Shown: positions 240 through 59,783 of the stretch, one piece after another | Position numbering within the stretch: the stretch's first letter is position 1 | How the letters are laid out: every line of letters starts with the position of its first letter | From: a candidate division TM6 bacterium GW2011_GWF2_28_16 | Lineage (GTDB): Bacteria; Babelota; Babeliae; Babelales; UASB340 | Reading direction: 5' to 3' | Assembly: GCA_000989185.1 (NCBI GenBank) | Contig: LBNX01000004.1 | Location: 23,797-87,796, forward strand | Length of the DNA: 64,000 bases | The notes under the pieces: generated by a model | Database searches by the model: none | Told to the model about the DNA's origin: nothing | The model's input: the letters and a program-made list of their open reading frames with translations, nothing else | Position numbers and translations under genes: made by a program

Positions 240-467
240 TAAGACTCCTCTCTCGTTATAGTGTTAAACTTACTACCAACTCTTTTGAACATGTTTTTGC
301 GCCACACACGCAAAGTAGTGCCGCAGGCACTGTAGTACCGTGTTCGATACCATGCGATTAGGGTAGATATAAAAAAATATTATTTAAAGTATTTTTTTAA
401 TAATATAGGTTTGTCTTAAAGATAAAGGGTTTTTTGTGATTATAATTAATGTATTATTCTTGTACTT

Positions 468-500
468 GTTATGCTGAATTTGTTTCAGCATTTAGAAATA
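468..500 (+). repeat. F-type hairpin repeat, variant copy
   Basis: GTTATGCTGAA-tttgt-TTCAGCATTTAGAAATA. Same architecture as GTCATCCTGAA-cttgt-TTCAGGATCTAGATA at 59729, with paired stem changes (CC/GG to GC/GC). Confidence 0.55.
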
Positions 501-506
501 TAAATT

Positions 507-700
507 TTTTAACAAATTAATATTTTTTTAATAACAAAGTTCTTCTTTTAACAAAAGAAGAGGCTGTTGGCCTCTCCTTTTGAAATCCTCACCAACAAAA
601 GAGTAAACTCTTTTGAATCTCTTAACGCTTCAAATCGCACCTATCCACCTGTGGTGGAATAGGCGTCTCGATGAAGCTAATAAAGTATTTTATATAAATA
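507..700 (+). repeat. family-1 intergenic repeat, copy 1 (AT-rich leader, two hairpins, module A hairpin)
   Basis: 507-628 is near-identical to 2210-2332. Contains hairpins AGAGGC-tgttg-GCCTCT and AAAAGAG-taaa-CTCTTTT. Module A stem is CCTATCCACC-tgt-GGTGGAATAGG (640-663). Ends in AGCTAATAAAGTA, as the other copies do. Confidence 0.8.
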
Positions 701-707
701 TAATTTC

Positions 708-752
708 AAAAAGAGCCTGCTTTAGCTGGCGTAACTGTGCTAGCGGCAGGCT
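708..752 (-). terminator. putative rho-independent terminator downstream of uppP
   Basis: On the minus strand, stem AGCCTGC (752-746) pairs with GCAGGCT (720-714), followed by CTTTTT. It starts 15 nt after the uppP stop. Confidence 0.45.
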
Positions 753-766
753 AGCGCTTGCTGCGT

Positions 767-1645
767 TTAACGTGAGATAATTAACCAAATTATTAAAATA
801 ATTATTGGTATTGGCATATAATATGCAAATTTATATAATTTGCCAGATTCAGCAATTTGTTTAACTTTTTTGAAAATAAAATAAGAGATAATGCTAGCCC
901 AGCCTACGCACAAGGCTACGGCGGGCATGCTATAATTAGGTGAAATATAATAAATAAAGTTTTTATTTGTCATTATAATTTTATAAACCCCCAACAAAAA
1001 TCCAGCGCAAATAATTGGGAATTGTATTAAAAATGTTATTTCAAAATTTCTTTTTAAATTTTTATTTAATAAACTCGCAAAAAAGAATACTGCTGCAAAT
1101 CTTGATATACCTGGGATTAGTGCAAGCCCCTGCACAAGGCCAAGAAGGGCAAAATTTATCGCAATGTGATTATTCGCCAGGCGATAGCCTGGCTCTACCT
1201 CAATGCCGCCACGCCTTGCGGCGGGCTCAAATGCCAGCAATAAGCCTGTTATACAAAAGCCAGTGAGTAATAAAAAATTAGAATTATAAAAGCTTAAATT
1301 TGTGATATAAAATTTAAATAAAAGCCAGATTAAAACTGTTATGCTGTCAGCAATAAAAATAAGCGATATTATTTTAAAAAATATTTTATATAAATTTTTA
1401 TAAGAATCTTTTAAATATATTTTTTTATTAAGTATGCCTGATAATAATTTTTGTATAGGCCCCCACCAGTTTTTATAAAAAATTATTAATAATATAATTA
1501 TTGTTGGTAAGTGCAAAACGTAATCAAAATATTCTGGAATATTTATACCAAAAAGTTTTTCTGCTAATAAAAAATGGCCAGAGCTCGAGATTGGCAGTGA
1601 TTCTAATATTATTTGTATAAAAATAAATATGATAATATAAAACAT
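767..1645 (-). CDS. uppP: undecaprenyl-diphosphate phosphatase (BacA/UppP family)
   Basis: 292 aa polytopic membrane protein. N-terminal LPISSSGH matches the UppP LPxSSxGH motif, and GLALIPGISR matches the ALxPGxSRSG motif. Confidence 0.85.
   Translation of the reverse strand: MFYIIIFIFIQIILESLPISSSGHFLLAEKLFGINIPEYFDYVLHLPTIIILLIIFYKNWWGPIQKLLSGILNKKIYLKDSYKNLYKIFFKIISLIFIADSITVLIWLLFKFYITNLSFYNSNFLLLTGFCITGLLLAFEPAARRGGIEVEPGYRLANNHIAINFALLGLVQGLALIPGISRFAAVFFFASLLNKNLKRNFEITFLIQFPIICAGFLLGVYKIIMTNKNFIYYISPNYSMPAVALCVGWASIISYFIFKKVKQIAESGKLYKFAYYMPIPIIILIIWLIISR
1175..1228. repeat. GC-rich palindromic segment translated in frame within uppP
   Basis: 54 nt encoding EPAARRGGIEVEPGYRLA. Contains hairpin GCCAGGC-gata-GCCTGGC (1176-1193). 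Also contains GCCGCCACGCCTTGCGGCGGGC, which resembles the intergenic modules at 5291-5318 and 11891-11916. GC rises sharply here in an AT-rich gene. Confidence 0.5.
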
Positions 1646-1691
1646 AAGTTAGCTTTCTTTTTTTATGATATTTACCGTTTTTATTGTTAAG

Positions 1692-1720
1692 TTGCAATGT
1701 ACAATCCAAAATATTATAAA
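1692..1720 (+). promoter_or_regulatory. candidate sigma70-type promoter for the antitoxin/toxin-remnant pair
   Basis: TTGCAA (1692-1697), 17-nt spacer, TATAAA (1715-1720), about 30 nt upstream of the ATG at 1750. Pattern match only. Confidence 0.3.
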
Positions 1721-1749
1721 TATATAGATATTAATTTGAAAGGATAATT

Positions 1750-1956
1750 ATGAAAAATTTCTTAGATGACTTGGCTCCAAATATTATAAAAAATAGTTCA
1801 GGACAAGAGATAGGTGTGTTTTTTGATATTAAAGATTATAATTTGCTTCTTGAGCATTTAGAAGAATTGTATTTGGGCAAAATTGCACAAAAAATTAAAA
1901 AAGAAGAAGGTGATAATTTAAAGAGCTTAGAAGATTTTGAAAAAGATCTTGATTAA
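1750..1956 (+). CDS. putative type II antitoxin (Phd/YefM-like)
   Basis: 68 aa acidic protein. Its stop lies 2 nt before a RelE/ParE-like remnant, which is the typical antitoxin-first arrangement. Confidence 0.5.
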   Translation: MKNFLDDLAPNIIKNSSGQEIGVFFDIKDYNLLLEHLEELYLGKIAQKIKKEEGDNLKSLEDFEKDLD

Positions 1957-1958
1957 AG

Positions 1959-2117
1959 ATGAGTAAAAATAGTTTATTTGGTTACAAAATATTTTTAACT
2001 AATAGAGCACAAAAAGAAATAAAAAAACTTACAAAGATAGATAGAGATAATGTATCTATAATTTTTGTTGGGCATAGAAAAAAAGTATATCAAGAATTTA
2101 AAAATATGTTTGGCTAA
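1959..2117 (+). pseudogene. internally deleted RelE/ParE-family toxin remnant
   Basis: 52-aa ORF not in the track: MSKNSLFGYKIFLTNRAQKEIKKLTKIDRDNVSIIFVGHRKKVYQEFKNMFG. It keeps the family N-terminus (Y-I-F-T..A.KEIKKL) and C-terminus (VSIIFVGHRKKVY). About 40 residues of the core are missing. Confidence 0.55.
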
Positions 2118-2209
2118 TTTTTTTAATACAGATTATAGATTATTTTTATAGTATTAATTTTTATTAAAATTTTAATTTAAAAATAACTTTAATAAAGTAA
2201 TAAAAGATC

Positions 2210-2416
2210 TTTTAACAAATTAATATTTTTTTAATAACAAAGTTTTTCTTTCTACAAAAGAAGAGGCTGTTGGCCTCTCCTTTTGAAATCCTCACCAACA
2301 AAAGAGTAAACTCTTTTGAATCTCTTAACGCTCCAACTCACATTGCCGGTTGCGCACTACGTGCTATCCGGACAAATGTTCGGTGTAGCTAATAAAGTAT
2401 TTTTTATAAATTGTAG
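2210..2416 (+). repeat. family-1 intergenic repeat, copy 2 (alternative inner hairpin cassette)
   Basis: 2210-2332 matches 507-628 with only a few mismatches. The module A hairpin is replaced by a different GC-rich hairpin (ACATTGCCGG...CCGGACAAATGT, inner GCAC-tac-GTGC). The shared end AGCTAATAAAGTATTTTTTATAAATTGTAG is retained. Confidence 0.8.
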
Positions 2417-2467
2417 TTTGAAGTATATATGCGACAAGCAATACTTGTGTTAATAATCTAAAAAAAT

Positions 2468-2757
2468 CTTTATTAGCTTCATCGAGACACCCATTCCACA
2501 AACGGTGGATGGGTGCGATTTGAAGCGACACAAAGGGTTTTAAAAGGGTCGTCCCTTTTATTTGCGGGGATCGCAAAGGGGTTGTCAAAACATAACCCCT
2601 TTGCAAACGAAATAAATATTTTAATTAAAAAAGAGTTTATCCAGCCTTCGCGTAAAGCTTCCAACTTCGCCAAGGCTTCGATGGACAGGACGGCGGACAC
2701 AGTCAGTAAAGATGATTTTCTTATATCTGGATCCTGAAATAAATTCAGGATGACAAA
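2468..2757. repeat. mosaic of GC-rich hairpin modules (A inverted, C, D, E, B inverted, F inverted)
   Basis: 2468-2527 is the rc of module A. AAAAGGG-tcgt-CCCTTTT lies at 2542-2559 and TTTGCG-gggat-CGCAAA at 2561-2577. GCAAAGGGGTT-gtcaaaacat-AACCCCTTTGC lies at 2573-2604. 2641-2699 is the rc of module B (5154-5212). 2725-2756 is an F hairpin. Confidence 0.8.
2725..2756 (-). repeat. F-type hairpin repeat
   Basis: The rc reads GTCATCCTGAA-tttat-TTCAGGATCCAGATAT, with a perfect 8-bp stem. Confidence 0.75.
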
Positions 2758-3237
2758 TGATTTTAAAATAAATAATAATAAAAAATAATAAATAATAAAA
2801 AATAAATAAATTTAAATTAAAAAAATTACATAAAAATATAAAATTTCTACACCCCATTTACCTAGCTTTTAAAAGCTAAAAAACCCTTTATTTTTCAGTA
2901 TAATCTTTGCTTTTTGTCGATCAACAGAGGGTTGCAGAATAAAATTTTTTTTTAAAAAACTTGAAATGTGGATCAAGAGTTGCTAAGTTATAAGGCATAA
3001 TGATTTAGAAAAATAAAAAGTGAGACACAAACAACATAAATGTTAGTATGTTTATCTAGTTAAAGAAAGGAGGAGGCACAAAAACAATCTTTCTTTTTTT
3101 CTACTCGTAAGTTTTTACAAGACGTGTTTATAGTAACGAGTTTAGGTAAGTACTTTTAATTGAGTAAGTGAATTCGTCAATAACAGACATGTTTCATTTA
3201 CAAAATTAAAATCGTTTTTTTATAGGGGAAAGACAGT

Positions 3238-4761
3238 ATGAACAAACTGTTAAAAGGTTTACTTGTCACAGCTTTAGTTGTTGGCACCGTAAACGCAGAT
3301 ACAAACAAAACATTCTTAATGCCTAGATCAGCTGGCGTTAATCTTCCAATGGAATACACAACATTTAATGAATTAATTCAACATAAAAATGGCGACTTCT
3401 TTGGAGCTCATTTCCAAGTAGTTCCATTTTATATGGATTCAACAAATGGTTCTGATATAGGTAAGTATTTTGGTATTGCTGGCAAAAATACATTTGTAAT
3501 TGGTAACTCAACTTTAGTTACAGCAGGTACAGCTGATATGAATTATGGATATATAATTCATAATATAGCAACTGCAGCAACTGCTGGTGTTGCAACATTG
3601 AATTTTGATCCAGAACTACAAGCTTATGGTGCAAGAATTGATTATTATCAAGATTTAGAAAAAATTCTTGATGGTTTATATTTAAAAGTTGCATTACCTA
3701 TAGTTCACACTGAAACAAAGATAAATAGAACAGTTTCATCTGTTACAGCAAGTAACAATTTGACAGAAGCACACTTGAATGAATATTTTGCTGGTACTTA
3801 TTCTCAAGATATTGCAGATGCAAATGCTCAAGCAGTTCTTGAACATGCAAAAAGAGATGGTTCTCATTCAGAAACATCTGTTGCAGACATTGATGTAGTA
3901 TTAGGCTACAAGATTTGGGACAAAGAAAAATACTCTTTTGCATTAAATCTTGGCTTAACAATTCCTGTTGGCAATGATGCTGATGGAGATTGGGCATTTG
4001 AACCAATAGTCGGCAATGGCGATCATTGGGGCTTTGGTGGTGGCTTAGATGCAATGGTAAGACTTTGGAAGAAGAATGATCAAGATATTAAATTAACATT
4101 AGCAGCTAACTATAGATATTTATTCTCTGGTACAGAAAAGAGAACATTGGGCTTAAATGATGTTGATGGTGTAGAAGTTCCTTTTGGCCAATATTATTTA
4201 GCAGCAACAATTGGTGATATACGTAGAACTCAACAATTACAACCTGTTGCAAATCTTTTAACACAAGATGTTAAAGTAGAGACAGGCAGCCAATTGGATG
4301 CAGAGTTATATTTTACATATAACAATGGTGGCTGGAATGTAGAACTTGGCTATAACCTATTCTACAAAGATTCTGAAGATGTAAGTCTTAAGAATGCTTG
4401 GTCAGACGGAGTATATGGTATAGCATTTATAGATCAAACATTTGCTACTGGTGGTGATGGTACTTTCGTAGCATCTGCAGATGGTACTGCCGCTGTTGGT
4501 GCTAATGGTGGTTCTCGTGGTCTTATAAACAATACTCCAACAAATACAGCTTTAGGCCAAACAACCAGAGCTTATGGTATCAATACCCATGTCGCAGAAT
4601 CAGCATCACAATTTACAAACAAGATCTTTGGTGGCGTTGGATATATTTTCAGAGAATGGGAATATCCAATGATGCTAAACATCAGTGGTGCATATGAATT
4701 TGCTGATCGTGATGCAATTGAAAATTGGCAAATCTGGGGTAAGATTGGCGTTAAATTTTAA
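3238..4761 (+). CDS. secreted outer-membrane beta-barrel candidate, OMP family paralogue 1
   Basis: 507 aa with signal peptide MNKLLKGLLVTALVVGTVNA and a C-terminal ...WGKIGVKF ending in Phe. Clear paralogy with 6994-8571 and 13647-15074 (TNKT(F/Y)L..RS, DIGKYFG, LQP.AN.LTQ.VK..(T/P)GS.LD). SD GGGGAAAG upstream. Confidence 0.65.
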   Translation: MNKLLKGLLVTALVVGTVNADTNKTFLMPRSAGVNLPMEYTTFNELIQHKNGDFFGAHFQVVPFYMDSTNGSDIGKYFGIAGKNTFVIGNSTLVTAGTADMNYGYIIHNIATAATAGVATLNFDPELQAYGARIDYYQDLEKILDGLYLKVALPIVHTETKINRTVSSVTASNNLTEAHLNEYFAGTYSQDIADANAQAVLEHAKRDGSHSETSVADIDVVLGYKIWDKEKYSFALNLGLTIPVGNDADGDWAFEPIVGNGDHWGFGGGLDAMVRLWKKNDQDIKLTLAANYRYLFSGTEKRTLGLNDVDGVEVPFGQYYLAATIGDIRRTQQLQPVANLLTQDVKVETGSQLDAELYFTYNNGGWNVELGYNLFYKDSEDVSLKNAWSDGVYGIAFIDQTFATGGDGTFVASADGTAAVGANGGSRGLINNTPTNTALGQTTRAYGINTHVAESASQFTNKIFGGVGYIFREWEYPMMLNISGAYEFADRDAIENWQIWGKIGVKF

Positions 4762-4834
4762 TTGAATAATTAATAATTTAATTTCAATTTACCATGATCC
4801 ATAAAGTAATTTGTGGATTACGATGTAAATCGAT

Positions 4835-4864
4835 GGGGCTCATAGAAATATGAGCCCTTTTTTG
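4835..4864 (+). terminator. rho-independent terminator after OMP paralogue 1
   Basis: GGGCTCATA-gaaa-TATGAGCCC followed by TTTTTT. Confidence 0.7.
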
Positions 4865-4935
4865 TTATATGAATTTTTTATTTATATTTTAATTTTTGAG
4901 TTTTCGTTACTGATTAACTTATTTTAAATATAAAA

Positions 4936-5404
4936 TTTATTTCGTCTTTAGGGGACTTCATTTTGGAAGTCCCCTATAACCCCTGCAAACAAAAGAGTAA
5001 ACTCTTTTGAATCTCTTGACGCTTCAAATCGCACCCCTCCACCGTTGGTGGAACGGGTGTCTCGATGAAGCTAATAAAGTACTTTTTATAAATTGTAGCA
5101 TTATATCTAGTGTTTAATTTAAAGATCTCCATATTAGACTTACCTTGTCTGCCTGTCCGCCGTCCTGTCCATCGAAGCCTTGGCAAAGTTGGAAGCCTTG
5201 TGCAAAGGCTGGAAGTGCCTAATGACGTTAGTCAGGAGGCACGAGTTAAGTCGTAATAAAGGGTTTTAAAAGGGTCTTCCCTTTTGACCTGCCCGCCATA
5301 GCCTTGGCGACGGCTGGGTTTACAGGGGTTATAGGGGACCATTAAATACATCGATGCCCTTTAGGCGTTGAGATGAAATCATGGTCCCCTAAAGACGAAA
5401 TAAA
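4936..5404. mobile_element. 469-bp composite palindromic element bounded by perfect inverted repeats (MITE-like, no ORF)
   Basis: Outer IR is TTTATTTCGTCTTTAGGGGAC (4936-4956) against GTCCCCTAAAGACGAAATAAA (5384-5404), 21/21. Inner IR is GTCCCCTATAACCCCTG (4969-4985) against CAGGGGTTATAGGGGAC (5323-5339), 17/17. The interior carries module A (4986-5099), module B (5154-5212), module C (5258-5286) and a CGCCATAGCCTTGGCGACGGC module. Confidence 0.6.
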
Positions 5405-5489
5405 CTTTTTAAGTAAAAAAGAGTTAGTCAGAAAATATAACTTAGAAATTAAATTTAAATTAAATTTAAATTTTAAGTTATAATTCGTT

Positions 5490-5739
5490 TTAATTTACAA
5501 TTTTATTTTTAAAAATTTTAGCAATTTTATTTTTATCTAGTTTAGAACATGCTATATCAAGGCCTAAATTAACAAGTTCTTCATTTGTAAAATTTACGAT
5601 ATAGCCATTTAATTCTAAAAAGATTATTGCTGTCATAAGGCCAGTTCTTTTATTGCCATCAAAAAATGGATGATTTTTTAATTAATTGATCATGTATTTT
5701 AATAATTTGATTAATAGATAAAAAAATAATTTTAGACAT
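5490..5739 (-). pseudogene. doc: Doc/Fic-family toxin pseudogene (internal deletion plus frameshift)
   Basis: ATG at 5739 gives MSKIIFLSINQIIKIHDQLIKKSSIF then a stop. The adjacent frame reads HPFFDGNKRTGLMTAIIFLELNGYIVNFTNEELVNLGLDIACSKLDKNKIAKIFKNKIVN. HPFxDGNKRT is the Doc/Fic active-site motif. About 40 residues between the N-terminal helix and the motif are missing. Confidence 0.7.
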
Positions 5740-5991: not shown

Positions 5992-6062
5992 AAATTTAAT
6001 AAAATTTAAATAAATTTAGCGTATTTTGATTATATAAATATTATAATTATTTGTTTTATAAC

Positions 6063-6112
6063 TTTTACTTGGCCTATAATTATACTTATTGCTATATTAA
6101 TTTTATTAAATA
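6063..6112 (+). repeat. 50-bp direct repeat, copy 1 (upstream of the MNT/HEPN pair)
   Basis: TTTTACTTGGCCTATAATTATACTTATTGCTATATTAATTTTATTAAATA. Matches 6875-6924 at 48/50. Confidence 0.85.
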
Positions 6113-6143
6113 TTTAAATGTTAAAAAAAACAGGAACATAAAT

Positions 6144-6458
6144 ATGAAAAATATTTTGGATGAAATAAAAAATAGATTAGTAAAAGTATATAGTCCTACA
6201 AAAATATATTTATTTGGCTCTAGCGCTTGGGGTAAGCAAACACCAGAAAGTGATTTAGACTTATTGATATTAATTCCAGAATCTAACGAAAGAAGTTACA
6301 AACGAGCAATTAAAGGAGAATTAGCTTTAGCAGATTTATTGGTTTCTAGAGATTTACTTGTTTATACAGAAAAAGAATTTGAATCTCTAGCAAGCGATGT
6401 AACTACTTTATGCTATAAAATAAAAAAAGAGGGAAAAGTAATCTATGCAAATGCATGA
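6144..6458 (+). CDS. nucleotidyltransferase-domain protein (MNT-type antitoxin)
   Basis: Start moved to the ATG at 6144, which has an AGGA SD. Contains the GS...D.D minimal nucleotidyltransferase motif (LFGSSAWGKQTPESDLDLLIL). Overlaps the downstream HEPN gene by 14 nt. Confidence 0.75.
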   Translation: MKNILDEIKNRLVKVYSPTKIYLFGSSAWGKQTPESDLDLLILIPESNERSYKRAIKGELALADLLVSRDLLVYTEKEFESLASDVTTLCYKIKKEGKVIYANA

Positions 6459-6864
6459 TGCATGGTTAAAAAAAGCTCATAGTGATTTATTAATAGCAAA
6501 AAAACTTTTTGATTTAAATGAGCTTGATTTATTTGATGGCGCAGCATATCACACTCAACAGTGTGCAGAAAAAGCTTTTAAATCATATTTGGCATATAAA
6601 AAACAAAATATTGAAAAAACACATAATTTAGTTTTATTGGTAAAATTATGTAGTCAGTATGATGCTGAATTTGAATCTTTATTGAATATATCAGCTATCT
6701 TAAATCCATATAGTATTAAATTTAGATATCCAGATGATGTAATGGTTCCAGAAAAGAGTGACTTAAAAGAGGCAATAGACTCTGCAGAAGTTATATTTAA
6801 ATTTATAAAGAAAAAAATTTCTGAGTTTAATACAGGACAGGGTAGTATATTTAGAAAATTATAA
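6445..6864 (+). CDS. HEPN-domain protein (toxin of the HEPN/MNT pair)
   Basis: 139 aa all-helical protein directly coupled to the MNT gene. The layout and size are typical of HEPN partners. Confidence 0.65.
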   Translation: MQMHDAWLKKAHSDLLIAKKLFDLNELDLFDGAAYHTQQCAEKAFKSYLAYKKQNIEKTHNLVLLVKLCSQYDAEFESLLNISAILNPYSIKFRYPDDVMVPEKSDLKEAIDSAEVIFKFIKKKISEFNTGQGSIFRKL

Positions 6865-6874
6865 ACTTTATAAA

Positions 6875-6924
6875 TTTTACTTGGTCTATAAATATACTTA
6901 TTGCTATATTAATTTTATTAAATA
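6875..6924 (+). repeat. 50-bp direct repeat, copy 2 (upstream of OMP paralogue 2)
   Basis: 48/50 identity with 6063-6112. The two copies bracket the complete MNT/HEPN operon. Confidence 0.85.
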
Positions 6925-6926
6925 GG

Positions 6927-6958
6927 ATTAGATCACGGCTCGGCGGCCGGGATGACAT
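6927..6958 (-). repeat. F-type hairpin repeat (GC-stem subtype)
   Basis: The rc reads GTCATCCCGGC-cgccga-GCCGTGATCTAA, with one stem mismatch. Confidence 0.65.
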
Positions 6959-6993
6959 ACTGTGTGATAGTATTTTTAAAAGAAAGAGAGAGT

Positions 6994-8571
6994 ATGAACA
7001 AAATTTCAAAAAATTTTATATTTAAATTTTTATTATTTTTAAATTTATTTTTTATAAATAATATTTATTCGACAGAAACAAATAAAACTTATCTTTTATC
7101 AAGATCTACTGGTGTAAACTTATCAATGGAGTACACGACTTTTAATAATTTTGTAAATTACAGAGATGATAAGCGTGCCCGGGATAATAAAGACAATAGC
7201 TTTGGGGCGCATATACAAGCAACGCCATATTATTTAGAATCGAATAATGGCAAAGATATAGGTAAATATTTTGGTTTTGATGATAAAAATATTTTACGAA
7301 TAGCTAGAAATAATATTGCTGGTTATGATCTAGATTTTAGATATATGGTGCATGATAATGTAAATACAGCAAATACAAATGCAATTGTAAAACTTGATCC
7401 AAAGTTTGAATCGTATGGTTTGCGTCTTGATTATTATCAAAAATTAGAAAAATTTCTCGATGGTTTATATTTTAAAATAGCTATACCAATATCTTATGTT
7501 AAAACAGATGTGCGATTAAATATTGCTGATCAGGCTGGATATTTTGTTGCTGGAACAAACACAGATTTGTATAAATATTTTGATGGCACTTATAATTTAC
7601 CTGTAGGTAATGCCCGAGCTCAAGCTGCTCTTGAATATGCAAAAATTTCTCAACATAAATTTTCAAAGACAAGCGTTGCAGATTTAGATTTAGTTTTAGG
7701 TTGCAAGTTTATAGATAGAGATAAATACTATGCAATAATAAATTTTGCATTAACAATACCAACAAATAACGAAGCTGGTGCCGGATATATGTTTGATGTA
7801 AATGTTGGCAATGGTAGTTATTGGGCTTTGGGTGGTGGGCTCGAAGGTATGATGCGCTTGTTTGGAAAAACAAATGATCATAATTTAAATTTAGTTGCAG
7901 TTGCAAATTATAGATATTTATTCGAAGGCAGAGCTGAGCGAACTATGGGTTTATTAAATCCAGATGGTACACGTGCAAACTGGGGCCAATATTATTTGGT
8001 TGGCGAAATTGGTACAGCTGTAAGTACACAACAGTTACAGCCTGCTGCAAATGTTTTGACACAAAGAGTAAAACTTGCTCCGGGTAGCCAATTAGATTCT
8101 ATGATCTATTTAAATTATAAATATTCTGGATTTACAGCAGAATTAGGTTATAACTTTTTCTGGCGTGATGACGAACAAATTAGTTTAAAAAATGAATGGC
8201 AAAATAATGTTTATGGCGTAGCAATTTTAGATCAAGATATGACTATTGCTGGAGGCGCAACTTTTGCAAACACTGGTTTTGCAGCTACAGCTGTACCTGT
8301 TAACGGTGGCTCTATGGGATATATTAATAATGACCCAGATAACACAGCTTTTACTGCTGCAGGAACAGTTGCAACTAGAGCTTATGGTTTAGATGAAGGT
8401 GTAGGTGCTGCCAGTTCACAAAATACACACAAAATTTTTGCTGGTTTGGGTTATGGCTTTTATGATTTTAAATTTCCCTGCATGCTTGGCATCGGCGGAG
8501 CATATGAATTTAATGGCGATGATGGAATTGAAAATTGGCAAGTTTATGGCAAAGTGGGATTAAAGTTTTAA
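6994..8571 (+). CDS. secreted outer-membrane beta-barrel candidate, OMP family paralogue 2
   Basis: Start moved to the ATG at 6994, after AGAAAGAGAGAG. Has a signal peptide and a C-terminal ...YGKVGLKF. Collinear with paralogue 1 along its whole length. Confidence 0.65.
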   Translation: MNKISKNFIFKFLLFLNLFFINNIYSTETNKTYLLSRSTGVNLSMEYTTFNNFVNYRDDKRARDNKDNSFGAHIQATPYYLESNNGKDIGKYFGFDDKNILRIARNNIAGYDLDFRYMVHDNVNTANTNAIVKLDPKFESYGLRLDYYQKLEKFLDGLYFKIAIPISYVKTDVRLNIADQAGYFVAGTNTDLYKYFDGTYNLPVGNARAQAALEYAKISQHKFSKTSVADLDLVLGCKFIDRDKYYAIINFALTIPTNNEAGAGYMFDVNVGNGSYWALGGGLEGMMRLFGKTNDHNLNLVAVANYRYLFEGRAERTMGLLNPDGTRANWGQYYLVGEIGTAVSTQQLQPAANVLTQRVKLAPGSQLDSMIYLNYKYSGFTAELGYNFFWRDDEQISLKNEWQNNVYGVAILDQDMTIAGGATFANTGFAATAVPVNGGSMGYINNDPDNTAFTAAGTVATRAYGLDEGVGAASSQNTHKIFAGLGYGFYDFKFPCMLGIGGAYEFNGDDGIENWQVYGKVGLKF

Positions 8572-8587
8572 AAATTGCATTTTTTAT

Positions 8588-9988
8588 TTACTTTCCTGCC
8601 AGCTCTTGCGCAATCAAGTTAACTCGTCCAGCGCCGATAGTTAAAAGTAAATCGTTATCTTGTAAAATATTTTGTACATCTTTTGTAATAGATGCATAAT
8701 CAGGATAATAAATTACTTTGATATTTTTATTTTGAGCTTGAATATCTTGTGCAAGTTTATAACTATTAATACCTTCTATAGGTGTTTCGCTTGCAGGATA
8801 AATATCTGTGATATATAAAGTTTTAATTTGTGTATTTTGTGAGAATACATTTACAAAGTCTTGCCATAATTTTTGCGTACGTGTAAATCTATGTGGCTGA
8901 AAGATTACATGTAAATTTTTATTGGCTCTTTTTTGTGCAATCAAAAGAGTATTATAAATTTCTGTAGGGTGATGACCGTAATCATCGAAAATTTCAGCAC
9001 CATTACATGTGCCTTTAAATTCAAAACGTCTTTCGACGCCTTTAAATGTTTCTAGTGCATTTTTTATTTTTTCAAAAGAGAGTTCAAGCTCAAGAGCGAG
9101 TGCAATGGCTGCAAGTGAGTTTAAAATATTGTGATGGCCTGGAACGTTAAGTGTGATTTGTCCTAATAAAAATTTGGGTTTTTTATAAATATTTTTATTA
9201 TTTAAATAAACATTATAAACAGAATTTGCTTTATTAAGTTCTAAAACTTCACAAGTAATATCAGCATCATCAGAAACACCATATTTTATAATATTAATAT
9301 CTGGTAGTGGCAGCATAGAGCGTATATTTTCATTATCTATGCATAAAATTGCTTTACCAAAAAATGGTAGTCTTTCTAAAAAATTTTTAAAAGTATTTTT
9401 TATATCGTCTAAATCTTTATAAGTATCTAAATGTTCTAAGTCTATGTTTGTAACAACAGCTATACATGGGCTTAAAAATAAAAATGATCTATCAGATTCA
9501 TCGGCTTCGGCAATTAAAATATCACTTTTGCCAAGTTTTGCATTTAGCGAAATACTTTTTAATACACCACCAATAATTATCGTTGGATCATAATTCGCTT
9601 CGAGTAATATATGCGAAATCATAGAAGTTGTTGTTGTTTTGCCATGCGCACCGGTAACGGCAATGCCGTGCTTCATACGCATTATTTCTGCAAGCATTTT
9701 GGCTCTTGGTATTACAGGGATATTTTTATTTATTGCTTCTATAACTTCTGGGTTATCGTTGTGTACCGCAGAAGAATAAACTAAAACGTCAGCATCGTTA
9801 ATATGCGTTTTATCATGATCTTTGTAAATTATACAGCCAATATCACGCAAGTGATTTATAATATTTGAGTTTATATCTTTATCGCAACCAGATACTATAT
9901 AGCCTTGCAAACGTAATATTTCTGCAATGCCACTCATGCCTATGCCGCCTATGCCTATAAAATGTATATGCTGATGTTTTTTGTACAT
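8588..9988 (-). CDS. murC: UDP-N-acetylmuramate--L-alanine ligase
   Basis: Start at MYKKHQHIHFIGIGGIGMSGIAE. Mur ligase ATP-binding motif GAHGKTTTTS present. The 12-codon extension in the ORF track is rejected. Confidence 0.9.
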   Translation of the reverse strand: MYKKHQHIHFIGIGGIGMSGIAEILRLQGYIVSGCDKDINSNIINHLRDIGCIIYKDHDKTHINDADVLVYSSAVHNDNPEVIEAINKNIPVIPRAKMLAEIMRMKHGIAVTGAHGKTTTTSMISHILLEANYDPTIIIGGVLKSISLNAKLGKSDILIAEADESDRSFLFLSPCIAVVTNIDLEHLDTYKDLDDIKNTFKNFLERLPFFGKAILCIDNENIRSMLPLPDINIIKYGVSDDADITCEVLELNKANSVYNVYLNNKNIYKKPKFLLGQITLNVPGHHNILNSLAAIALALELELSFEKIKNALETFKGVERRFEFKGTCNGAEIFDDYGHHPTEIYNTLLIAQKRANKNLHVIFQPHRFTRTQKLWQDFVNVFSQNTQIKTLYITDIYPASETPIEGINSYKLAQDIQAQNKNIKVIYYPDYASITKDVQNILQDNDLLLTIGAGRVNLIAQELAGK

Positions 9989-9989
9989 A

Positions 9990-11129
9990 CTAGATTTTCC
10001 CAAAAAAATTATTAATACGATCAAGCCCTTCTATAAGAACTTCTGGATTACGTGCAAAACATAATCTTAAATAACTTTTGCCACTAGCACCAAAATATTT
10101 ACCGGCAATTAAGCCAACTTTTGCTTGGCGTAATATTTGTTCACTTAATACTTCTGCATCAGGATAATCTGTTTTTAAAAAAACAAAAAAACCGCCGGCA
10201 GGTTTTTGGTAGCTAAATATATTTTTGTTAACTAAATTTTGTAATTTGTTTTCAAGAATATTTAAATTATTTTTTACTATTAAACTAAATTCTTGTGTAA
10301 ATTCTGGATGATCAAGTGCAAATAATGCTGCATATTGTGATGGTACATTTGTGCAATTTAATAAAGCATCTTGCATTGCTCCAAGGGGAATATTTAAACT
10401 TTCGGGTATAACCATATAACCTACTCGCCAGCCAGACATGCCCATACTTTTTGAAAAAGTATTAACGTTTATAAAGTAATTACTTTCGTTAACAAATTTT
10501 GCACTAGAATTATAATTATTATTATAAATATAATCGCGATAAGCTTCGTCTATTATTAAATAAATTTTATTCTCTTCGCACCAGCTTAATAATTCTTTAA
10601 TAATATTTTCGGGAATTATAATACCCAAAGGGTTATTTGGGTTAGAAAATATTATAATTTTAGTTTTACTTGTAGTTGCTTGTTTTATTTTTTCTATGTT
10701 TAATTCCCATTTATTATCTTGTGCCATGCTAACAAACACAGCATTTGCTCGAGCGAGTTTTACAAGTTTTTCGTATGCAGGATAAGTTGGTTCTGGAATA
10801 ATAACTTCGTCACCAGCTTCTAGTAAAGTTAAAAATATAGTCGAAAGTGCACCTATAGCACCATGTGTGACTATAATATTATTTATATTTAAATTTATAT
10901 TATTATTTTCGCTAACAACTTGAGCTAATTTTTCACGTAATTTTAAAATTCCCCAAGCGCTTTGATAGTAATCGCTTTTATCTGTTTTTAAAACTTCTTG
11001 TATATAATTTTTGATTTGCTCTGGTATTCCACCAACTTTTAATGCACCCTGTGAAAGTGAAATATATTCGTTACTACTATTAACTATTGCTTCAACTTTT
11101 TTTATTCCAGATAATGGGATATTTAGCAT
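9990..11129 (-). CDS. PLP-dependent aminotransferase, class I/II
   Basis: 379 aa. NTFSKSMGMSGWRVGY matches the PLP-lysine motif (SKxxxxxGxRxG). Confidence 0.75.
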   Translation of the reverse strand: MLNIPLSGIKKVEAIVNSSNEYISLSQGALKVGGIPEQIKNYIQEVLKTDKSDYYQSAWGILKLREKLAQVVSENNNINLNINNIIVTHGAIGALSTIFLTLLEAGDEVIIPEPTYPAYEKLVKLARANAVFVSMAQDNKWELNIEKIKQATTSKTKIIIFSNPNNPLGIIIPENIIKELLSWCEENKIYLIIDEAYRDYIYNNNYNSSAKFVNESNYFINVNTFSKSMGMSGWRVGYMVIPESLNIPLGAMQDALLNCTNVPSQYAALFALDHPEFTQEFSLIVKNNLNILENKLQNLVNKNIFSYQKPAGGFFVFLKTDYPDAEVLSEQILRQAKVGLIAGKYFGASGKSYLRLCFARNPEVLIEGLDRINNFFGKI

Positions 11130-11675: not shown

Positions 11676-11912
11676 GTTTTTTGCCCAGGGCATTAGAAGC
11701 AAGTCGGTAGCATTCGCGTAGGCAAATTTGAAGCTATCTCAAATATAAAATATTTAAAATTATATTTTCTAGATAGCGTCAAAAAAAACAATATCAATTT
11801 CAGGTCCGCCTTCGTTAAAACTTCGGCGGGACAGCCTACGCAACTGTGCTATTAAAATCTTTTTAAATTATAATACCGGTACTGGCATGCCAGCCGTAGC
11901 CTTGGCGTAGGC
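11676..11912. repeat. GC-rich hairpin modules flanking the 3' side of tRNA-Ala
   Basis: TTTGCC...GGCAAA at 11680-11726. GTCCGCC...GGCGGGAC at 11804-11831. CAACTGTGCTA (11841-11851) differs by one base from TAACTGTGCTA at 732-742. CCAGCCGTAGCCTTGGCGTAGGCTGG (11890-11915) abuts and overlaps the tRNA 3' end. Confidence 0.6.
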
Positions 11913-11988
11913 TGGTGGAGCTAACCGGGGTCGAACCGGTGACCTCATGAATGCCATTCATGCGTTCTACCAACTGAACTATAGCCCC
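11913..11988 (-). tRNA. tRNA-Ala (anticodon GGC), CCA encoded
   Basis: The rc folds as a cloverleaf. Acceptor stem GGGGCTA/TAGCTCC carries the G3:U70 alanine identity pair. D arm is GTTC/GAAC. Anticodon stem CATGA/TCATG has loop ATGGCAT. T arm is ACCGG-TTCGACC-CCGGT, and the 3' end is ACCA. Confidence 0.9.
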
Positions 11989-12126: not shown

Positions 12127-13629
12127 ATGGAAAATTTATTTAAAATAATTAAAAAATTAAACCCAATATTAAAAGAAATAATAAATAATGGTTCTGTACC
12201 GTATCTTGTTGGTGGTAGCGTGCGAGATTTAGTTTTAAATTTAGAAACAAAAGATCTTGATATAGAAGTTCATAAAATATCTATAAAAGATTTAGAAAAA
12301 ATTTTAAAAAAATTTGGACATGTGCGTCTTGTTGGTCAAAAATTTGGTGTTTTAAAAATAGATGGAATAAACGTAGATTGGTCATTACCCAGAAAAGATA
12401 GTATTGGCAGAAAGCCAAAAGTTATAATAAAAAAAGATATTTCTATAAAAGATGCGCTTGTACGGCGTGATTTAACTATTAATGCAATGGCTATAGATTT
12501 GCGGGAGCTTTTAAAAAATAAAAATAATTTTAAAAAAATAATTATTGACCCATTTGGTGGCCTAAAAGATATTAAAAATAAAAAATTAAGAGTTATTGAT
12601 GCTAATTTTTTTGTTCAGGATCCTTTAAGATTATTTAGAGTTATGCAATTTGCAGCACGTTTTAATATGGCGCCAGATAAAAATTTAAATAATATTTGTA
12701 AAACTATGAGTTTGCAGGACCCAGCAACAGGAAAATTAATTTCGCGTGAACGAATTTTTGATGAAATTAAAAAATTATTATTAAAGAGTAAACAACCAAG
12801 TATTGGCTTTAGATGGCTATTAAAAATAAATAGATTAAAAGATATTTTTCCTGAAATTTATAATTTAATTGGTGTTAAACAGAAAAAAGAATATCATCCA
12901 GAGGGTGATGTGTTTGAGCACACTATGCAGTGTATAGATGTTGCTGCAAATCTTGATATTTATGAAACAGAAAACGAAAAATTCTTGATTATTTTAGCGC
13001 TTTTGTGTCACGATTTTGGCAAGCCAAAAGTTACAGATAAAAATTTATCAGCAATAGGGCACGAAAAAGAGGGCGTAGAAATTGCAAAAAAATTTTTAAA
13101 GCGAATTACGCGCGATAAAAATTTGATAAACTCTGTGTGCAAGTTGGTTTTGTATCACATGCAGCCAGCGCAATTATTAAAAAGTAATGCAAAAATTAGT
13201 GCATATAAAAGATTAGCTATAAAACTTGCCACAGATATAAACATGAAACAACTTGGCATTGTTTGGCTTGCGGATAATTTGGGACGGGTAGCGTATCGCT
13301 CGGGTAGACGCTTCGATACACCTCGCGTTGTTCGGCACTCAGCGCGAACGGGAAGTTTGAAAAAACACGCCGTGCAGGCTTTGTCATCCCGGGCAAGGAC
13401 CCGGGATCTAGAAAATAAAATAATAAGTGAGTTTAAACAATATTTAAAAATAATAAAAAATTTAAATATAGAAACAGGTCCGGAAAAGCCAATTTTACTT
13501 GGCCGTGATATTTTGGATAAAGTAAAACCAGGGCCTCAAATGGGTAAAATTTTAAAATGTGCTTATAAAATACAAATAGAGGAGGGTGTTAAAGATAAGG
13601 AGACGTTAAAGAAAAGAGTATTAAAGTAG
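12127..13629 (+). CDS. cca: CCA-adding enzyme / poly(A) polymerase family nucleotidyltransferase with HD domain
   Basis: N-terminal YLVGGSVRD...DLDIEV matches the class II nucleotidyltransferase GGxVRD...DxD motif. The HD-domain motif LLCHDFGK is present. Confidence 0.85.
   Translation: MENLFKIIKKLNPILKEIINNGSVPYLVGGSVRDLVLNLETKDLDIEVHKISIKDLEKILKKFGHVRLVGQKFGVLKIDGINVDWSLPRKDSIGRKPKVIIKKDISIKDALVRRDLTINAMAIDLRELLKNKNNFKKIIIDPFGGLKDIKNKKLRVIDANFFVQDPLRLFRVMQFAARFNMAPDKNLNNICKTMSLQDPATGKLISRERIFDEIKKLLLKSKQPSIGFRWLLKINRLKDIFPEIYNLIGVKQKKEYHPEGDVFEHTMQCIDVAANLDIYETENEKFLIILALLCHDFGKPKVTDKNLSAIGHEKEGVEIAKKFLKRITRDKNLINSVCKLVLYHMQPAQLLKSNAKISAYKRLAIKLATDINMKQLGIVWLADNLGRVAYRSGRRFDTPRVVRHSARTGSLKKHAVQALSSRARTRDLENKIISEFKQYLKIIKNLNIETGPEKPILLGRDILDKVKPGPQMGKILKCAYKIQIEEGVKDKETLKKRVLK
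13282..13413 (+). repeat. composite GC-rich palindromic element translated in frame within cca (ends in an F hairpin)
   Basis: 44 codons (about G386-E429, ...VAYRSGRRFDTPRVVRHSARTGSLKKHAVQALSSRARTRDLE). 13381-13413 is TTGTCATCCCGGG-caagga-CCCGGGATCTAGAA with a perfect stem. The 5' part shares CTCAG(C/G)GCGAACG(G/A)GA with 18462-18540. Confidence 0.75.
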
Positions 13630-39474: not shown

Positions 39475-39482
39475 AAAATGTG

Positions 39483-39543
39483 GTAGCCCAGCGATGTCCG
39501 TCGAAGCCTGTGGCGAAGACTGGATGCGCAAGCGCTGGGCTAC
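39483..39543. repeat. GC-rich clamp hairpin containing a module B-like core, between convergent lpxC and rseP
   Basis: GTAGCCCAGCG (39483-39493) pairs with CGCTGGGCTAC (39533-39543), 11/11. The interior TGTCCGTCGAAGCCTGTGGCGAAGACTGGATGC resembles module B TGTCCATCGAAGCCTTGGCGAAGTTGGAAGC. Confidence 0.65.
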
Positions 39544-39560
39544 ATGATAACTTATATTAG

Positions 39561-59728: not shown

Positions 59729-59762
59729 TTGTCATCCTGAACTTGTTTCAGGATCTAGATAT
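59729..59762 (+). repeat. F-type hairpin repeat (reference copy), immediately after the rplQ stop
   Basis: TTGTCATCCTGAA-cttgt-TTCAGGATCTAGATAT with a perfect 8-bp stem. It begins on the nucleotide after the TAA. Confidence 0.8.
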
Positions 59763-59783
59763 ATAAAGTTAAACCAATAAATT

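What the first reader, a model, noticed from the sequence alone, without database searches (positions are those of the whole stretch)
2210..2757. Head-to-head mosaic of hairpin modules, with a compensatory change in the module A stem
A family-1 repeat (2210-2416, plus strand) faces an inverted module A (2468-2527). A chain of at least five more hairpins follows, ending with inverted module B and an inverted F hairpin. Module A stems differ between copies in a paired way. The stems are CCTATCCACC/GGTGGAATAGG (640-663), CCCATCCAC/GTGGAATGGG (2486-2516, rc) and CCCCTCCACC/GGTGGAACGGG (5034-5057). The third base pair is T-A in one copy and C-G in the other two, and the bulged A is conserved. The shuffled order and orientation of modules between loci recalls E. 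coli BIME mosaics.
Basis: seen in the sequence. Interest (0 to 1): 0.6.

Follow-up and report, generated by a model that had tools for sequence, protein, structure and literature searches.

The report
Mosaic of nested hairpin DNA repeats
This stretch upstream of a porin gene in an uncultured TM6/Dependentiae bacterium is a pile-up of small hairpin-forming repeats nested in and beside each other. It resembles the REP/BIME and NIME repeat mosaics of E. coli and Neisseria, and there is no sign that it is a gene or a structured RNA.

Summary
Window 2196-2757 carries two convergent copies of a ~210-bp unit with a fixed hairpin order (X-H2-A). These are followed by module B and hairpin F. The region folds far better than shuffles (z -7.7 and -9.6) and is identical in an independent assembly.

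The module A "compensatory change" is real but weak. Across four copies, one pair is compensated and two are broken; 115 of 500 shuffles reach the observed covariation.

The modules are dispersed repeats:
- **F** belongs to the published Ssn-related motif (NTS/dRS3-like) hairpin class. Twelve distinct copies are 100% paired, with double changes at 4 of 8 pairs. The exact variant occurs in more than 120 genomes of many phyla.
- **B** is a ~30-nt "S" element with a second S element in its loop. Filled-versus-empty comparisons show S insertions of 29-33 nt, including insertions into REP hairpin loops.
- **RAYT.** The same genome (candidate division TM6 GW2011_GWF2_28_16) encodes a RAYT transposase flanked by inverted GTAG-REP doublets.

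The 210-bp unit is lineage-specific. All six copies lie within about 10 kb.

Verdict: a REP/BIME- and NIME-like nested repeat mosaic, a new variant of a known kind. The BIME analogy is partly supported.

The parts
2196..2416 (+). Family-1 unit, type I. It is a three-hairpin repeat: X 2256-2284, H2 2300-2317, and slot A at 2330-2389, occupied here by a different hairpin (A').
   Evidence: 93% identical to 494-639 and 91% to 668-699; alignment A1; folds.
2417..2458 (.). 42-nt AT-rich spacer between the two convergent units, with a small hairpin ACAAG-CAATA-CTTGT at 2434-2448.
   Evidence: Sequence; fold. The flanking GCTAATAAAG...T-rich right ends of the two units pair across it.
2459..2641 (-). 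Family-1 unit, type II, inverted: module A 2476-2526 (inner stem 2490-2513), H2 2542-2559, X 2573-2604, and an AT-rich left end to 2641.
   Evidence: 70% identity to 523-694, 75% to 4912-5088, 87% to L001:1889-2007; alignments A1 and A8.
2640..2698 (-). Module B. This is an S-family element with arms GTCCGCC/GGCTGGA, an extrahelical T and the core AGCTTTACGCG.
   Evidence: 92% complementary to 5154-5213. A short form without the inner insert is at L001:2104-2141. That short form is a 33-nt insertion relative to the empty site at 5418-5430, with GACT on both sides. S-family table.
2660..2691 (-). Nested S-family element G (32 nt, core AGCCTTGGCG) sitting in the loop of module B.
   Evidence: Absent from the short B at L001:2104-2141. 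Present alone at L001:5546-5590. A variant sits in a REP loop at 39490-39522.
2722..2756 (-). F hairpin: TTGTCAT-CCTGAA-loop-TTCAGG-ATCCAG. It is a hairpin of the Ssn-related-motif (NTS/dRS3-like) class.
   Evidence: Covariance model hit of 53.7 bits. Family covariation. Flanks match the NTS/SRM consensus of PMC11893778. Sibling 13382-13411 matches the SRM pattern exactly.
466..705 (+). Related locus 1: F hairpin (466-500, stem ATGCTGAA/TTCAGCAT) directly followed by a family-1 type I unit carrying module A (inner stem 640-663).
4900..5441 (.). Related locus 3, a convergent pair downstream of the porin gene. It holds family-1 (+) 4912-5098 with module A, B with nested G at 5154-5213, and family-1 (-) 5242-5425 without A. 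The last carries an extra S element (P) at 5289-5321.
   Evidence: P is a 33-nt insertion relative to L001:1990-2000.
39479..39546 (+). R-family REP hairpin (GTAGCCCAG...CTGGGCTAC) with an S-type element (about 39490-39522) inserted in its loop.
   Evidence: Alignment to the empty REP beside the RAYT gene, L006:9586-9641.
59729..59763 (+). F hairpin starting on the base after the rplQ stop codon and upstream of a canonical terminator.
13382..13411 (+). F/SRM hairpin lying in frame inside the CCA-adding/poly(A) polymerase-like ORF. It is part of a 135-nt GC-rich island at 13279-13413.

Best explanation
Window 2196-2757 is non-coding repeat DNA. It is a mosaic built by repeated insertion, duplication and recombination of small hairpin-forming dispersed elements. 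These are of the same general kind as REP/BIME (E. coli) and dRS3/NIME (Neisseria).

**Composition**
- Two convergent copies of a lineage-specific ~210-bp three-hairpin unit (X-H2-A).
- At the outer end of the second copy, a ~30-nt S-type imperfect palindrome (module B) with a second S element nested in its loop.
- Then one hairpin of the Ssn-related-motif class (F).

**Proposed mechanism.** The elements are propagated as folded single-stranded DNA by hairpin-specific enzymes acting in trans. Candidates are the genome's RAYT (HUH Y1 transposase) and possibly a GIY-YIG Ssn-type nuclease. Existing hairpins and their loops are preferred landing sites, so arrays grow by nesting in a few permissive intergenic regions. 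Stems stay paired, and bulges stay conserved, because the enzymes read the folded DNA.

**Shown**
- Repetition and hairpin potential.
- Nested filled-versus-empty sites.
- Absence of the mosaic from the orthologous spacer of the nearest relative.
- A RAYT with its own flanking REPs in the same genome.
- Membership of F in the SRM class by its flanks.
- Watson-Crick-only covariation in F.

**Inferred**
- Which enzyme moves which family.
- ssDNA as the substrate.
- Loop targeting as a rule.
For: 1. **Repeats.** Six family-1 units (494-705, 2196-2416, 2459-2641, 4912-5098, 5242-5425, L001:1889-2110) lie in four unrelated intergenic contexts and both orientations.
2. **Nesting shown by paralogous filled and empty sites.**
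   - B is a 33-nt insertion with GACT on both sides.
   - G is a 32-nt insertion in B's loop.
   - P is a 33-nt insertion between H2 and X.
   - An S element sits in the loop of a REP at 39.5 kb.
   - S elements sit in loops of RAYT-flanking REPs in two other Dependentiae. In L139 the upstream REP is empty and the downstream one is filled.
3. **RAYT.** P0172 of the same organism is flanked by inverted GTAG-hairpin doublets. In relative L003 a RAYT with the same kind of flanks sits next to bacA, in the spacer that here holds F + family-1.
4. **F hairpin.**
   - Twelve distinct copies from 4 genomes give 95 of 95 cells Watson-Crick paired.
   - Four of 8 pairs have double changes, and there are no single-sided (G.U-type) intermediates.
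   - The covariation score is 0.455 against 0.177 for shuffles, reached by 0 of 500.
   - Copies occur in both orientations.
   - This fits a constraint at the DNA level better than one on RNA.
5. **F matches published NTS/SRM features.** It has GTCAT 5' of the palindrome and ATC-YRG 3' of it. The exact variant occurs in more than 120 genome stretches of many phyla, where about 1 is expected by chance. Of these, 11% lie in open frames against 64% of random positions.
6. **Orthologous spacer.** The mosaic has no counterpart in the relative, while the adjacent porin upstream region 2867-3237 is conserved at 71-78%.
7. **Composition.** Modules are 45-70% GC islands in spacers that are otherwise 8-20% GC. 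Only 7 of 30 spacers of at least 60 nt carry them.
8. **Bulges.** Conserved extrahelical bases (A in module A, T in S arms) parallel the stem irregularity that TnpA-REP needs for binding (PMC3333891).
Against: - No enzyme is linked directly to family-1, S or F in this genome. The RAYT is flanked by the R family only. No Y1 or GIY-YIG gene lies in the window or L001. No RAYT lies within 861 kb of F-bearing loci from other genomes.
- All six family-1 units lie within about 10.3 kb, and none is found in the other ~73 kb read from this genome. Local duplication and recombination could explain them without transposition.
- No target-site rule or terminal repeats could be defined for family-1 in the AT-rich flanks.
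- Module A covariation is not significant.
- The filled/empty comparisons are between paralogous copies, not between strains. Deletion cannot be formally excluded in favour of insertion.
- The covariance-model alignment used for F leans towards the structure.
Confidence: 0.6

Rival explanations
1. The mosaic functions as a recombination substrate or variation promoter, as proposed for NIME arrays. It grew mainly by local duplication and gene conversion, not transposition. The repeat arrays flank outer-membrane porin genes and provide homology or nuclease sites that promote exchange of the adjacent surface-protein genes.
For: - All six family-1 units cluster within about 10 kb, around a porin gene that has two paralogues nearby.
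- Unit 4912-5098 is chimeric. Its X is of type II, while its H2-A part is 91% identical to the type I unit, which suggests recombination between copies.
- The array shows a G+C wave of GC-rich hairpins and AT-rich spacers, as in NIMEs (PMC1797815).
- F is of the dRS3/NTS class.
Against: - Only one F hairpin is present per mosaic, not one between every unit.
- There is no evidence of transformation or porin allele exchange in this organism.
- The other two porin paralogues (6952-8571, 13647-15074) are not flanked by family-1 units.
- S elements show discrete insertions of 29-33 nt, which duplication alone does not explain.
- The association rests on a single locus.
Confidence: 0.2
2. The family-1 units are small RNA genes or cis-acting RNA elements, such as 3'-UTR stabilisers or regulators of porin expression. 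On this reading the hairpins are kept by selection on RNA structure.
For: - Each unit has a fixed order of three stable hairpins (z -6.1 and -7.1).
- H2 shows a compensated A-T to G-C change.
- The units lie near porin genes, which are often sRNA targets.
- One F hairpin sits directly after the rplQ stop codon.
Against: - No Rfam family matches. The best hits are far below gathering scores.
- No terminator-like T run follows hairpin A, although this genome uses canonical terminators elsewhere. The scan finds none in the units.
- Units tolerate insertions of about 33 nt, replacement of hairpin A by an unrelated hairpin, and loss of A.
- Units and F hairpins occur in both orientations relative to neighbouring genes.
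- F shows no G.U pairs in 95 cells.
- Units are absent from relatives.
- The mosaic lies upstream of the conserved porin upstream region and so is probably outside the porin mRNA.
Confidence: 0.12
3. The pattern is due to chance or to an assembly artefact in a repeat-rich metagenome contig.
For: A short Logan contig (L002) breaks inside the locus 3 repeat, which shows that assemblers struggle here.
Against: - An independent ENA assembly is identical to the window over 14.7 kb.
- The folding z-scores are -7.7 and -9.6.
- F and S occur with the same architecture in other genomes.
Confidence: 0.02

Closest known systems
REP/BIME with RAYT (TnpA-REP), E. coli and Pseudomonas (PMC3333891; REPINs)
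   Same: - Short imperfect palindromes with conserved stem irregularities.
- They cluster into intergenic mosaics.
- Units occur as inverted pairs.
- The same genome encodes a RAYT-type Y1 transposase flanked by inverted GTAG-hairpin doublets.
   Different: - The modules inside 2196-2757 lack the GTAG foot.
- They are not the repeats that flank the RAYT.
- The main unit is a ~210-bp hairpin triplet, not a 30-40-nt REP.
- Some family members lie in frame inside ORFs.
Neisserial intergenic mosaic elements (NIME: dRS3 hairpins + RS units), PMC1797815
   Same: - Arrays of GC-rich short hairpins and AT-richer repeat units with a G+C wave.
- The arrays lie next to surface-protein genes.
- F shares the flanks of the NTS form of dRS3 (GTCAT...ATC-YRG).
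- Other repeat types insert opportunistically into the arrays.
   Different: - Only one F hairpin is present per mosaic, whereas a dRS3 bounds every RS unit in a NIME.
- The stems differ in sequence.
- The phylum is different. In 2007 NIMEs were said not to occur outside Neisseria.
Ssn-related motifs (NTS/SRM) and GIY-YIG ssDNA nuclease Ssn, PMC11893778
   Same: - The F family has the oriented flanks: GTC upstream, which is important for cleavage, and C right after the palindrome, which is important for binding.
- Copy 13382-13411 and copies in L003 and L007 match the published degenerate pattern exactly.
- The distribution is pan-bacterial.
   Different: - The copy in the finding (stem CCTGAA/TTCAGG) fails the published pattern at two degenerate stem positions.
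- No Ssn gene could be looked for outside the ~84 kb of this genome that I could read.
Rickettsia palindromic elements (RPE)
   Same: Palindromic repeats that also insert in frame into protein-coding genes of an AT-rich intracellular bacterium. Here that applies to bacA and the CCA-enzyme-like gene.
   Different: RPEs are 100-150 bp and share no sequence with these modules. The finding itself is intergenic.
IS1397/ISKpn1 insertion into REP loops; GC clusters of yeast mitochondrial DNA
   Same: Mobile DNA that targets the loops of palindromic repeats, and GC-rich hairpin modules scattered in very AT-rich spacers. Both comparisons come from memory.
   Different: The S elements are only ~30 nt and encode nothing. 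No homology was tested.

Membership tests
REP/BIME (RAYT-associated) | The unit is a 30-40-nt imperfect palindrome with a conserved GTAG at the 5' foot (PMC3333891). | tested here: not met
   Modules A, A', B/G and F in 2196-2757 have no GTAG foot; F has GTCAT and S has TG. The separate R family (39479-39546, L006:9049-9103 and 9586-9641) does have GTAG + hairpin.
REP/BIME (RAYT-associated) | [quoted passage not shown] | tested here: inconclusive
   Two family-1 units are convergent and 42 nt apart here. A second convergent pair lies at 4912-5425. However, the units are ~210-bp hairpin triplets that are only 60-70% alike.
REP/BIME (RAYT-associated) | The genome encodes a RAYT flanked by the same repeats (REPtron). 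| tested here: not met
   RAYT P0172 exists but is flanked by R doublets, not by A, B or F. There is no RAYT in the window or L001.
NIME (Neisseria) | dRS3-type 20-bp inverted repeats bound every RS unit (PMC1797815). | tested here: not met
   There is one F hairpin at one end of this mosaic and one at locus 1, but none at locus 3 or at L001:1889-2145.
NIME (Neisseria) | A G+C wave along the array, and a position next to surface-protein genes. | tested here: met
   GC islands of 62-75% lie in 8-20% GC spacers. The arrays flank the porin gene 3238-4761. This is a single case.
Ssn-related motif (SRM/NTS) | Match to HGTCWYN(0-2)YYVSBRHN(0-5)WNVSBRGN(0-2)RNCYNB (PMC11893778). | tested here: inconclusive
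   Copy 2722-2756 fails at two stem positions (T for V, A for B). Siblings 13382-13411, L003:8192-8220 and three copies in L007 match exactly. All are joined in one family by covariance model R1.
Ssn-related motif (SRM/NTS) | Oriented flanks: conserved bases upstream of the palindrome and a C right after it. | tested here: met
   TGTCAT...GGATC-YAG is present in all Dependentiae copies. Y precedes GTCAT in 120 of 135 hits from other genomes, and Y follows GGATC in 132 of 135.
Ssn-related motif (SRM/NTS) | An Ssn (GIY-YIG) gene in the genome, often flanked by SRMs. | not testable with these tools
   Only ~84 kb of this genome was readable, and no GIY-YIG hit appeared among the window ORFs scanned.
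MITE | Terminal inverted repeats plus a target-site duplication. | tested here: inconclusive
   The locus 3 pair has 57-nt inverted ends at 81-85% identity, but these are simply the left ends of two units. No duplication could be called in the AT-rich flanks. B shows GACT on both sides.
Known RNA families (Rfam 15) | Score at or above the family's gathering threshold. | tested here: not met
   Only a tRNA elsewhere in the window passes. In 300-5600 the best hits are 18-29 bits against thresholds of 32-107.

The most novel reading that the evidence does not exclude
The ~30-nt S elements (TG-YCCGCC-NN-AGCCTTGGCG-NN-GGCTGG, with an extrahelical T) may be a distinct minimal mobile hairpin family. 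On this reading they preferentially colonise the loops of other hairpin repeats: REPs beside RAYT genes, other S elements and family-1 units. Together with Ssn-type hairpins and a lineage-specific three-hairpin unit, they would build NIME-like arrays next to porin genes in Dependentiae. That would be a case of repeats parasitising repeats, and of NIME-type architecture outside Neisseria.
Probability: 0.25. Interest if true: 0.6.

Novelty: new variant of a known kind. Interest (0 to 1): 0.4.

Why it matters
**What it shows.** A reduced, 28% GC genome of an uncultured intracellular-type bacterium (TM6/Dependentiae) carries at least four hairpin-repeat systems:
- RAYT-REP doublets;
- Ssn-type hairpins;
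- S elements;
- a lineage-specific three-hairpin unit.

These nest inside each other and even inside essential genes.

**Practical use.** It warns annotators that GC-rich "insertions" and odd peptides such as VILNLFQDP in proteins of such genomes are repeat-derived.

**Wider use.** The discrete ~30-nt nested insertions give a natural record of how REP/NIME-like mosaics grow. If the loop-targeting reading holds, they point to an ssDNA insertion activity that has not been characterised.

**Limits.** It does not reveal a new gene system, and the specific covariation claim that motivated the finding is weak.

Tried and rejected
- **Genome scan for the H2 27-mer.** The genome collection gave 0 hits.
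- **Metagenome scan for the 20-mer TCTCGATGAAGCTAATAAAG.** This gave 0 hits. The source genome is not in those collections.
- **Gapped module A pattern in metagenomes.** This gave 8 hits, all chance matches inside coding sequence of 49-64% GC contigs. Rejected.
- **RNA family identity.** Nothing was found at gathering score. A sub-threshold guanidine-II hit at 2544-2603 (21.9 versus 32 bits) was rejected. Only one of the two hairpins has an ACGR loop, and the paralogous copies carry other loops.
- **Promoter/terminator scan.** Promoter-like sites are no more frequent than in shuffles, and no terminator lies in the units.
- **attC (integron) reading of module A.** This was considered because TA cassettes lie nearby. 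It was rejected because no R''/R' core sites (RYYYAAC/GTTRRRY) bracket the hairpin and the units occur in both orientations (sequence).
- **RAYT next to F hairpins in other genomes.** None was found in 861 kb.
- **A gene between the F copies of L077.** Nothing nuclease-like was found.
- **GIY-YIG or Y1 genes in the window.** None was found. The family listing was truncated, so the small ORFs were rescanned.
- **Proving the 135-nt island in the CCA-enzyme-like gene is an insertion.** Solved structures align only to residue ~353, so this failed.
- **Literature search for peptide strings and for Dependentiae repeats.** Nothing relevant was found.
Full report
**Source and setting**

The window is from an uncultured TM6/Dependentiae bacterium. 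Its BacA and porin are 100% identical to proteins named "candidate division TM6 bacterium GW2011_GWF2_28_16". The same DNA is on a 265-kb contig of a Rifle groundwater metagenome. That independent assembly is identical to the window over the 14,761 nt they share.

The genome is about 28% GC. The finding lies in the 1,120-nt spacer between a small RelB-like antitoxin gene pair (1750-2117) and a 507-aa porin-like gene (3238-4761). The porin belongs to a family without a Pfam model that is widespread in Dependentiae.

**Checking the observation**

The coordinates and the quoted stems are correct. Self-comparison shows that 2196-2342 is 93% identical to 494-639. It also shows that 2459-2641 is an inverted, diverged copy (70-75%) of the same kind of unit as 523-694 and 4912-5088. 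Module B (2640-2699) is 92% complementary to 5154-5213, and F (2722-2756) is 91% complementary to 59729-59763.

The region folds much better than dinucleotide shuffles on either strand, with z -7.65 and -9.58.

A multiple alignment and single-unit folds show that "family-1" is a unit of about 210 bp with three hairpins in a fixed order:
- X, a GC-rich hairpin whose sequence differs between copies;
- H2, AAAAGRG-N4-CYCTTTT;
- A, with an outer stem GCTTCA..TCG/CGA.TGAAGC around an inner hairpin.

The unit has AT-rich ends.

I found six units: 494-705, 2196-2416, 2459-2641 (-), 4912-5098, 5242-5425 (-, lacking A), and L001:1889-2110 (-), which lies 4.9 kb upstream of the window. So the order of modules inside the unit is not shuffled. 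What differs is the orientation, which hairpin fills a slot, and which extra small elements are inserted. Two of the four loci hold convergent pairs with the A ends facing each other.

**Module A covariation**

There are four copies. Counting the 19 pairs of the outer and inner stems gives 16 invariant pairs. One pair is compensated (T-A in the 640 copy, C-G in the rest). One pair is C.C in two copies, where both sides changed and pairing was lost. The loop-closing pair is C.U in the 2486 copy. The covariation score is reached by 115 of 500 shuffles.

In the unit at 2196-2416 the A slot holds an unrelated hairpin (2330-2389) inside otherwise 91-93% identical flanks.

**What hairpin F is**

A covariance model built from six copies finds 12 distinct copies in this genome and in three other Dependentiae. 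All read (T)TGTCAT-stem-loop-stem-ATC-YAG.

Every one of 95 pair cells is Watson-Crick. Four of the 8 pairs show changes on both sides, none shows a one-sided change, and no shuffle reaches the score. The alignment is model-fitted, which favours the structure, but the slid controls drop to 19-58% paired.

A text search for such sequences led to Chenal et al. 2025 (PMC11893778). That paper describes:
- the Neisseria NTS (CGTCATTCCCGCGMAVGCGGGAATCYRG), the long form of dRS3;
- a degenerate "Ssn-related motif";
- their association with a GIY-YIG single-strand nuclease, Ssn.

In that work the bases just upstream of the palindrome matter for cleavage, and the C just after it matters for binding. 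F has exactly these flanks.

The published pattern matches 13382-13411, L003:8192-8220 and three L007 sites outright. The AT-richer stem of the copy in the finding misses at two degenerate positions.

My estimate of the chance expectation is about one. The flanks outside Y-GTCAT...GGATC-Y are not conserved. Only 11% of these copies lie in open frames, against 64% of random positions. F is therefore a member of a known, cosmopolitan hairpin class.

**What module B is**

B belongs to a family I call S. Its form is TG-YCCGCC-NN-AGCCTTGGCG-NN-GGCTGG-R, about 30 nt, and the 3' arm carries an extrahelical T in most copies. S copies occur in this genome and in four other Dependentiae loci with the same architecture.

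Comparisons between paralogous copies give filled and empty sites:
- **B.** A short B is a 33-nt insertion, with GACT on both sides, in the left end of the family-1 unit at L001. The same site is empty at 5418-5430.
- **G.** The B copies at 2640 and 5154 carry a further 32-nt S element (G, 2660-2691) in their loop. G also occurs alone at L001:5546-5590.
- **P.** Another S element (P, 5289-5321) sits between H2 and X of the unit at 5242-5425 and is absent from the L001 unit.
- **REP loop.** An S element sits in the loop of a REP hairpin at 39479-39546.

**A RAYT in the same genome**

In the closest relative found (porin 69% identical) the gene next to bacA is a 125-aa Y1 transposase. It is flanked by inverted copies of a two-hairpin repeat. 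Its homologue in the window's own organism is P0172, which is 68% identical and carries the same organism name. P0172 lies on another contig and is flanked by inverted doublets GAGCCTGC-GTCA-GCAGGC...GGTAGCCCAG-loop-CTGGGCTAC. That is a GTAG foot plus hairpin in an inverted arrangement, the hallmark of RAYT/REP systems (PMC3333891).

Copies of this R family are in the window (39479-39546) and at L001:5378-5438 and 5601-5671.

In two further Dependentiae the RAYT-flanking R hairpins carry S elements in their loops. In L139 the upstream R is empty and the downstream one is filled.

**Context and distribution**

Spacers without modules are 8-20% GC. The seven spacers with modules reach 62-75% GC locally.

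The mosaic has no counterpart in the relative's orthologous spacer. The 370 nt just upstream of the porin start are conserved at 71-78%. The mosaic therefore lies outside the conserved, presumably regulatory, part.

Modules also occur inside ORFs:
- Other Dependentiae BacA proteins carry in-frame peptides that are translations of F (VILNLFQDP, LKQVQNDK).
- The window's bacA and its CCA-enzyme-like gene contain GC-rich islands, and one of them includes a perfect SRM hairpin.

Family-1 itself was not found in 52 kb from relatives or in 861 kb from other phyla.

**Interpretation**

The best reading is a nested mosaic of non-autonomous hairpin repeats of the REP/BIME and NIME kind. Several points suggest a constraint on folded DNA read by proteins, not on RNA:
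- F varies only between Watson-Crick pairs.
- Copies occur in both orientations.
- Extrahelical bases are conserved.
- The units tolerate insertions of about 33 nt.

Which enzyme moves which family is inferred, not shown. The RAYT is tied only to R, and Ssn could not be searched for.

The tight clustering of all six family-1 units keeps a local duplication and recombination origin alive. It also keeps alive a NIME-like role beside a surface-protein gene. An RNA role is less likely for four reasons:
- No Rfam family matches.
- No terminator follows the units.
- Hairpins can be replaced or lost.
- The units are absent from relatives.

**Verdict**

The BIME analogy is partly supported: the kind of thing is right, the membership is wrong, and the covariation argument is weak. 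The finding is a new variant of a known kind and of moderate interest.

Noticed in passing
window 892-932, 1172-1241 (bacA, minus strand); 13279-13413 (CCA-enzyme/poly(A) polymerase-like ORF 12127-13629): GC-rich hairpin-repeat sequences lie in frame inside protein-coding genes. One is an S element in bacA. Another is a 135-nt island (45 codons) between the HD domain and the C-terminal domain, and it ends in a perfect SRM hairpin. BacA proteins of other Dependentiae (P0003, P0005) carry different in-frame insertions that translate F hairpins (VILNLFQDP, LKQVQNDK). The behaviour resembles that of Rickettsia palindromic elements.
   Followed up: partly
L018-L137 (genome-contig hits); window 59729-59763: The 25-nt hairpin GTCATCCTGAA-N5-TTCAGGATC is nearly identical in more than 120 genomes. 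These include Sphingomonadaceae, Bacteroidota, Patescibacteria/CPR, Melainabacteria, Treponema, Elusimicrobiota and Rickettsiales. The loops are dominated by CTTGT, TTTAT and CTTGA. Most copies are intergenic. No RAYT gene lies within 861 kb of these loci.
   Followed up: partly
L006:9049-9641; L003:6750-7420; L007:9690-10520; L138; L139: RAYT-type Y1 transposase genes of Dependentiae are flanked by inverted two-hairpin REP doublets with a GTAG foot. In L003 the RAYT sits next to bacA, in the spacer that in the window (240-766) holds F + family-1 + an R-like hairpin.
   Followed up: yes
window 39479-39546; L007:9735-9765, 9885-9915, 10410-10440, 10470-10500; L139 downstream of the RAYT: S elements of about 30 nt are repeatedly found inside the loops of REP hairpins. 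Empty and filled REPs can flank the same RAYT gene.
   Followed up: partly
window 6045-6112 and 6857-6924: 68-nt direct repeats (90% identical) bracket the nucleotidyltransferase/HEPN toxin-antitoxin pair (6051-6864). An F-like hairpin (6926-6964, minus strand) follows. This suggests a cassette-like insertion.
   Followed up: no
window 11886-11915: An S element (CCAGCC-GT-AGCCTTGGCG-TA-GGCTGG) abuts the 3' CCA end of tRNA-Ala(GGC) (11913-11988, minus strand). A second S-like hairpin lies at 11805-11832.
   Followed up: no
window 2867-3237 versus L003:9438-10000: The ~370 nt upstream of the porin start codon are conserved at 71-78% between species whose porins are 69% identical. The stretch includes a TTGAAA-17-TAAGTT promoter-like site near 2962-2995. 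It may be a long regulated leader.
   Followed up: partly
window 3238-4761, 6952-8571, 13647-15074: Three paralogous ~500-aa outer-membrane porin-like genes with no Pfam match lie within 12 kb. The family has hundreds of homologues, almost all in Dependentiae/Babeliales metagenome bins.
   Followed up: partly
window 18470-18530 and 13320-13360: Another hairpin repeat type (GCTCGTTCG...CGAACGAG, with CTCAGGGCGAACG) lies next to rpmB. A similar sequence forms part of the island inside the CCA-enzyme-like gene. It was not classified.
   Followed up: no
L001:5449-5528: Two tandem F-type hairpins lie in the same orientation, 45 nt apart. Their stems differ by compensated changes (CCTCAA/TTGAGG versus CCTCGA/TCGAGG). 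They lie in a spacer that also holds a solo S element and two R doublets.
   Followed up: partly
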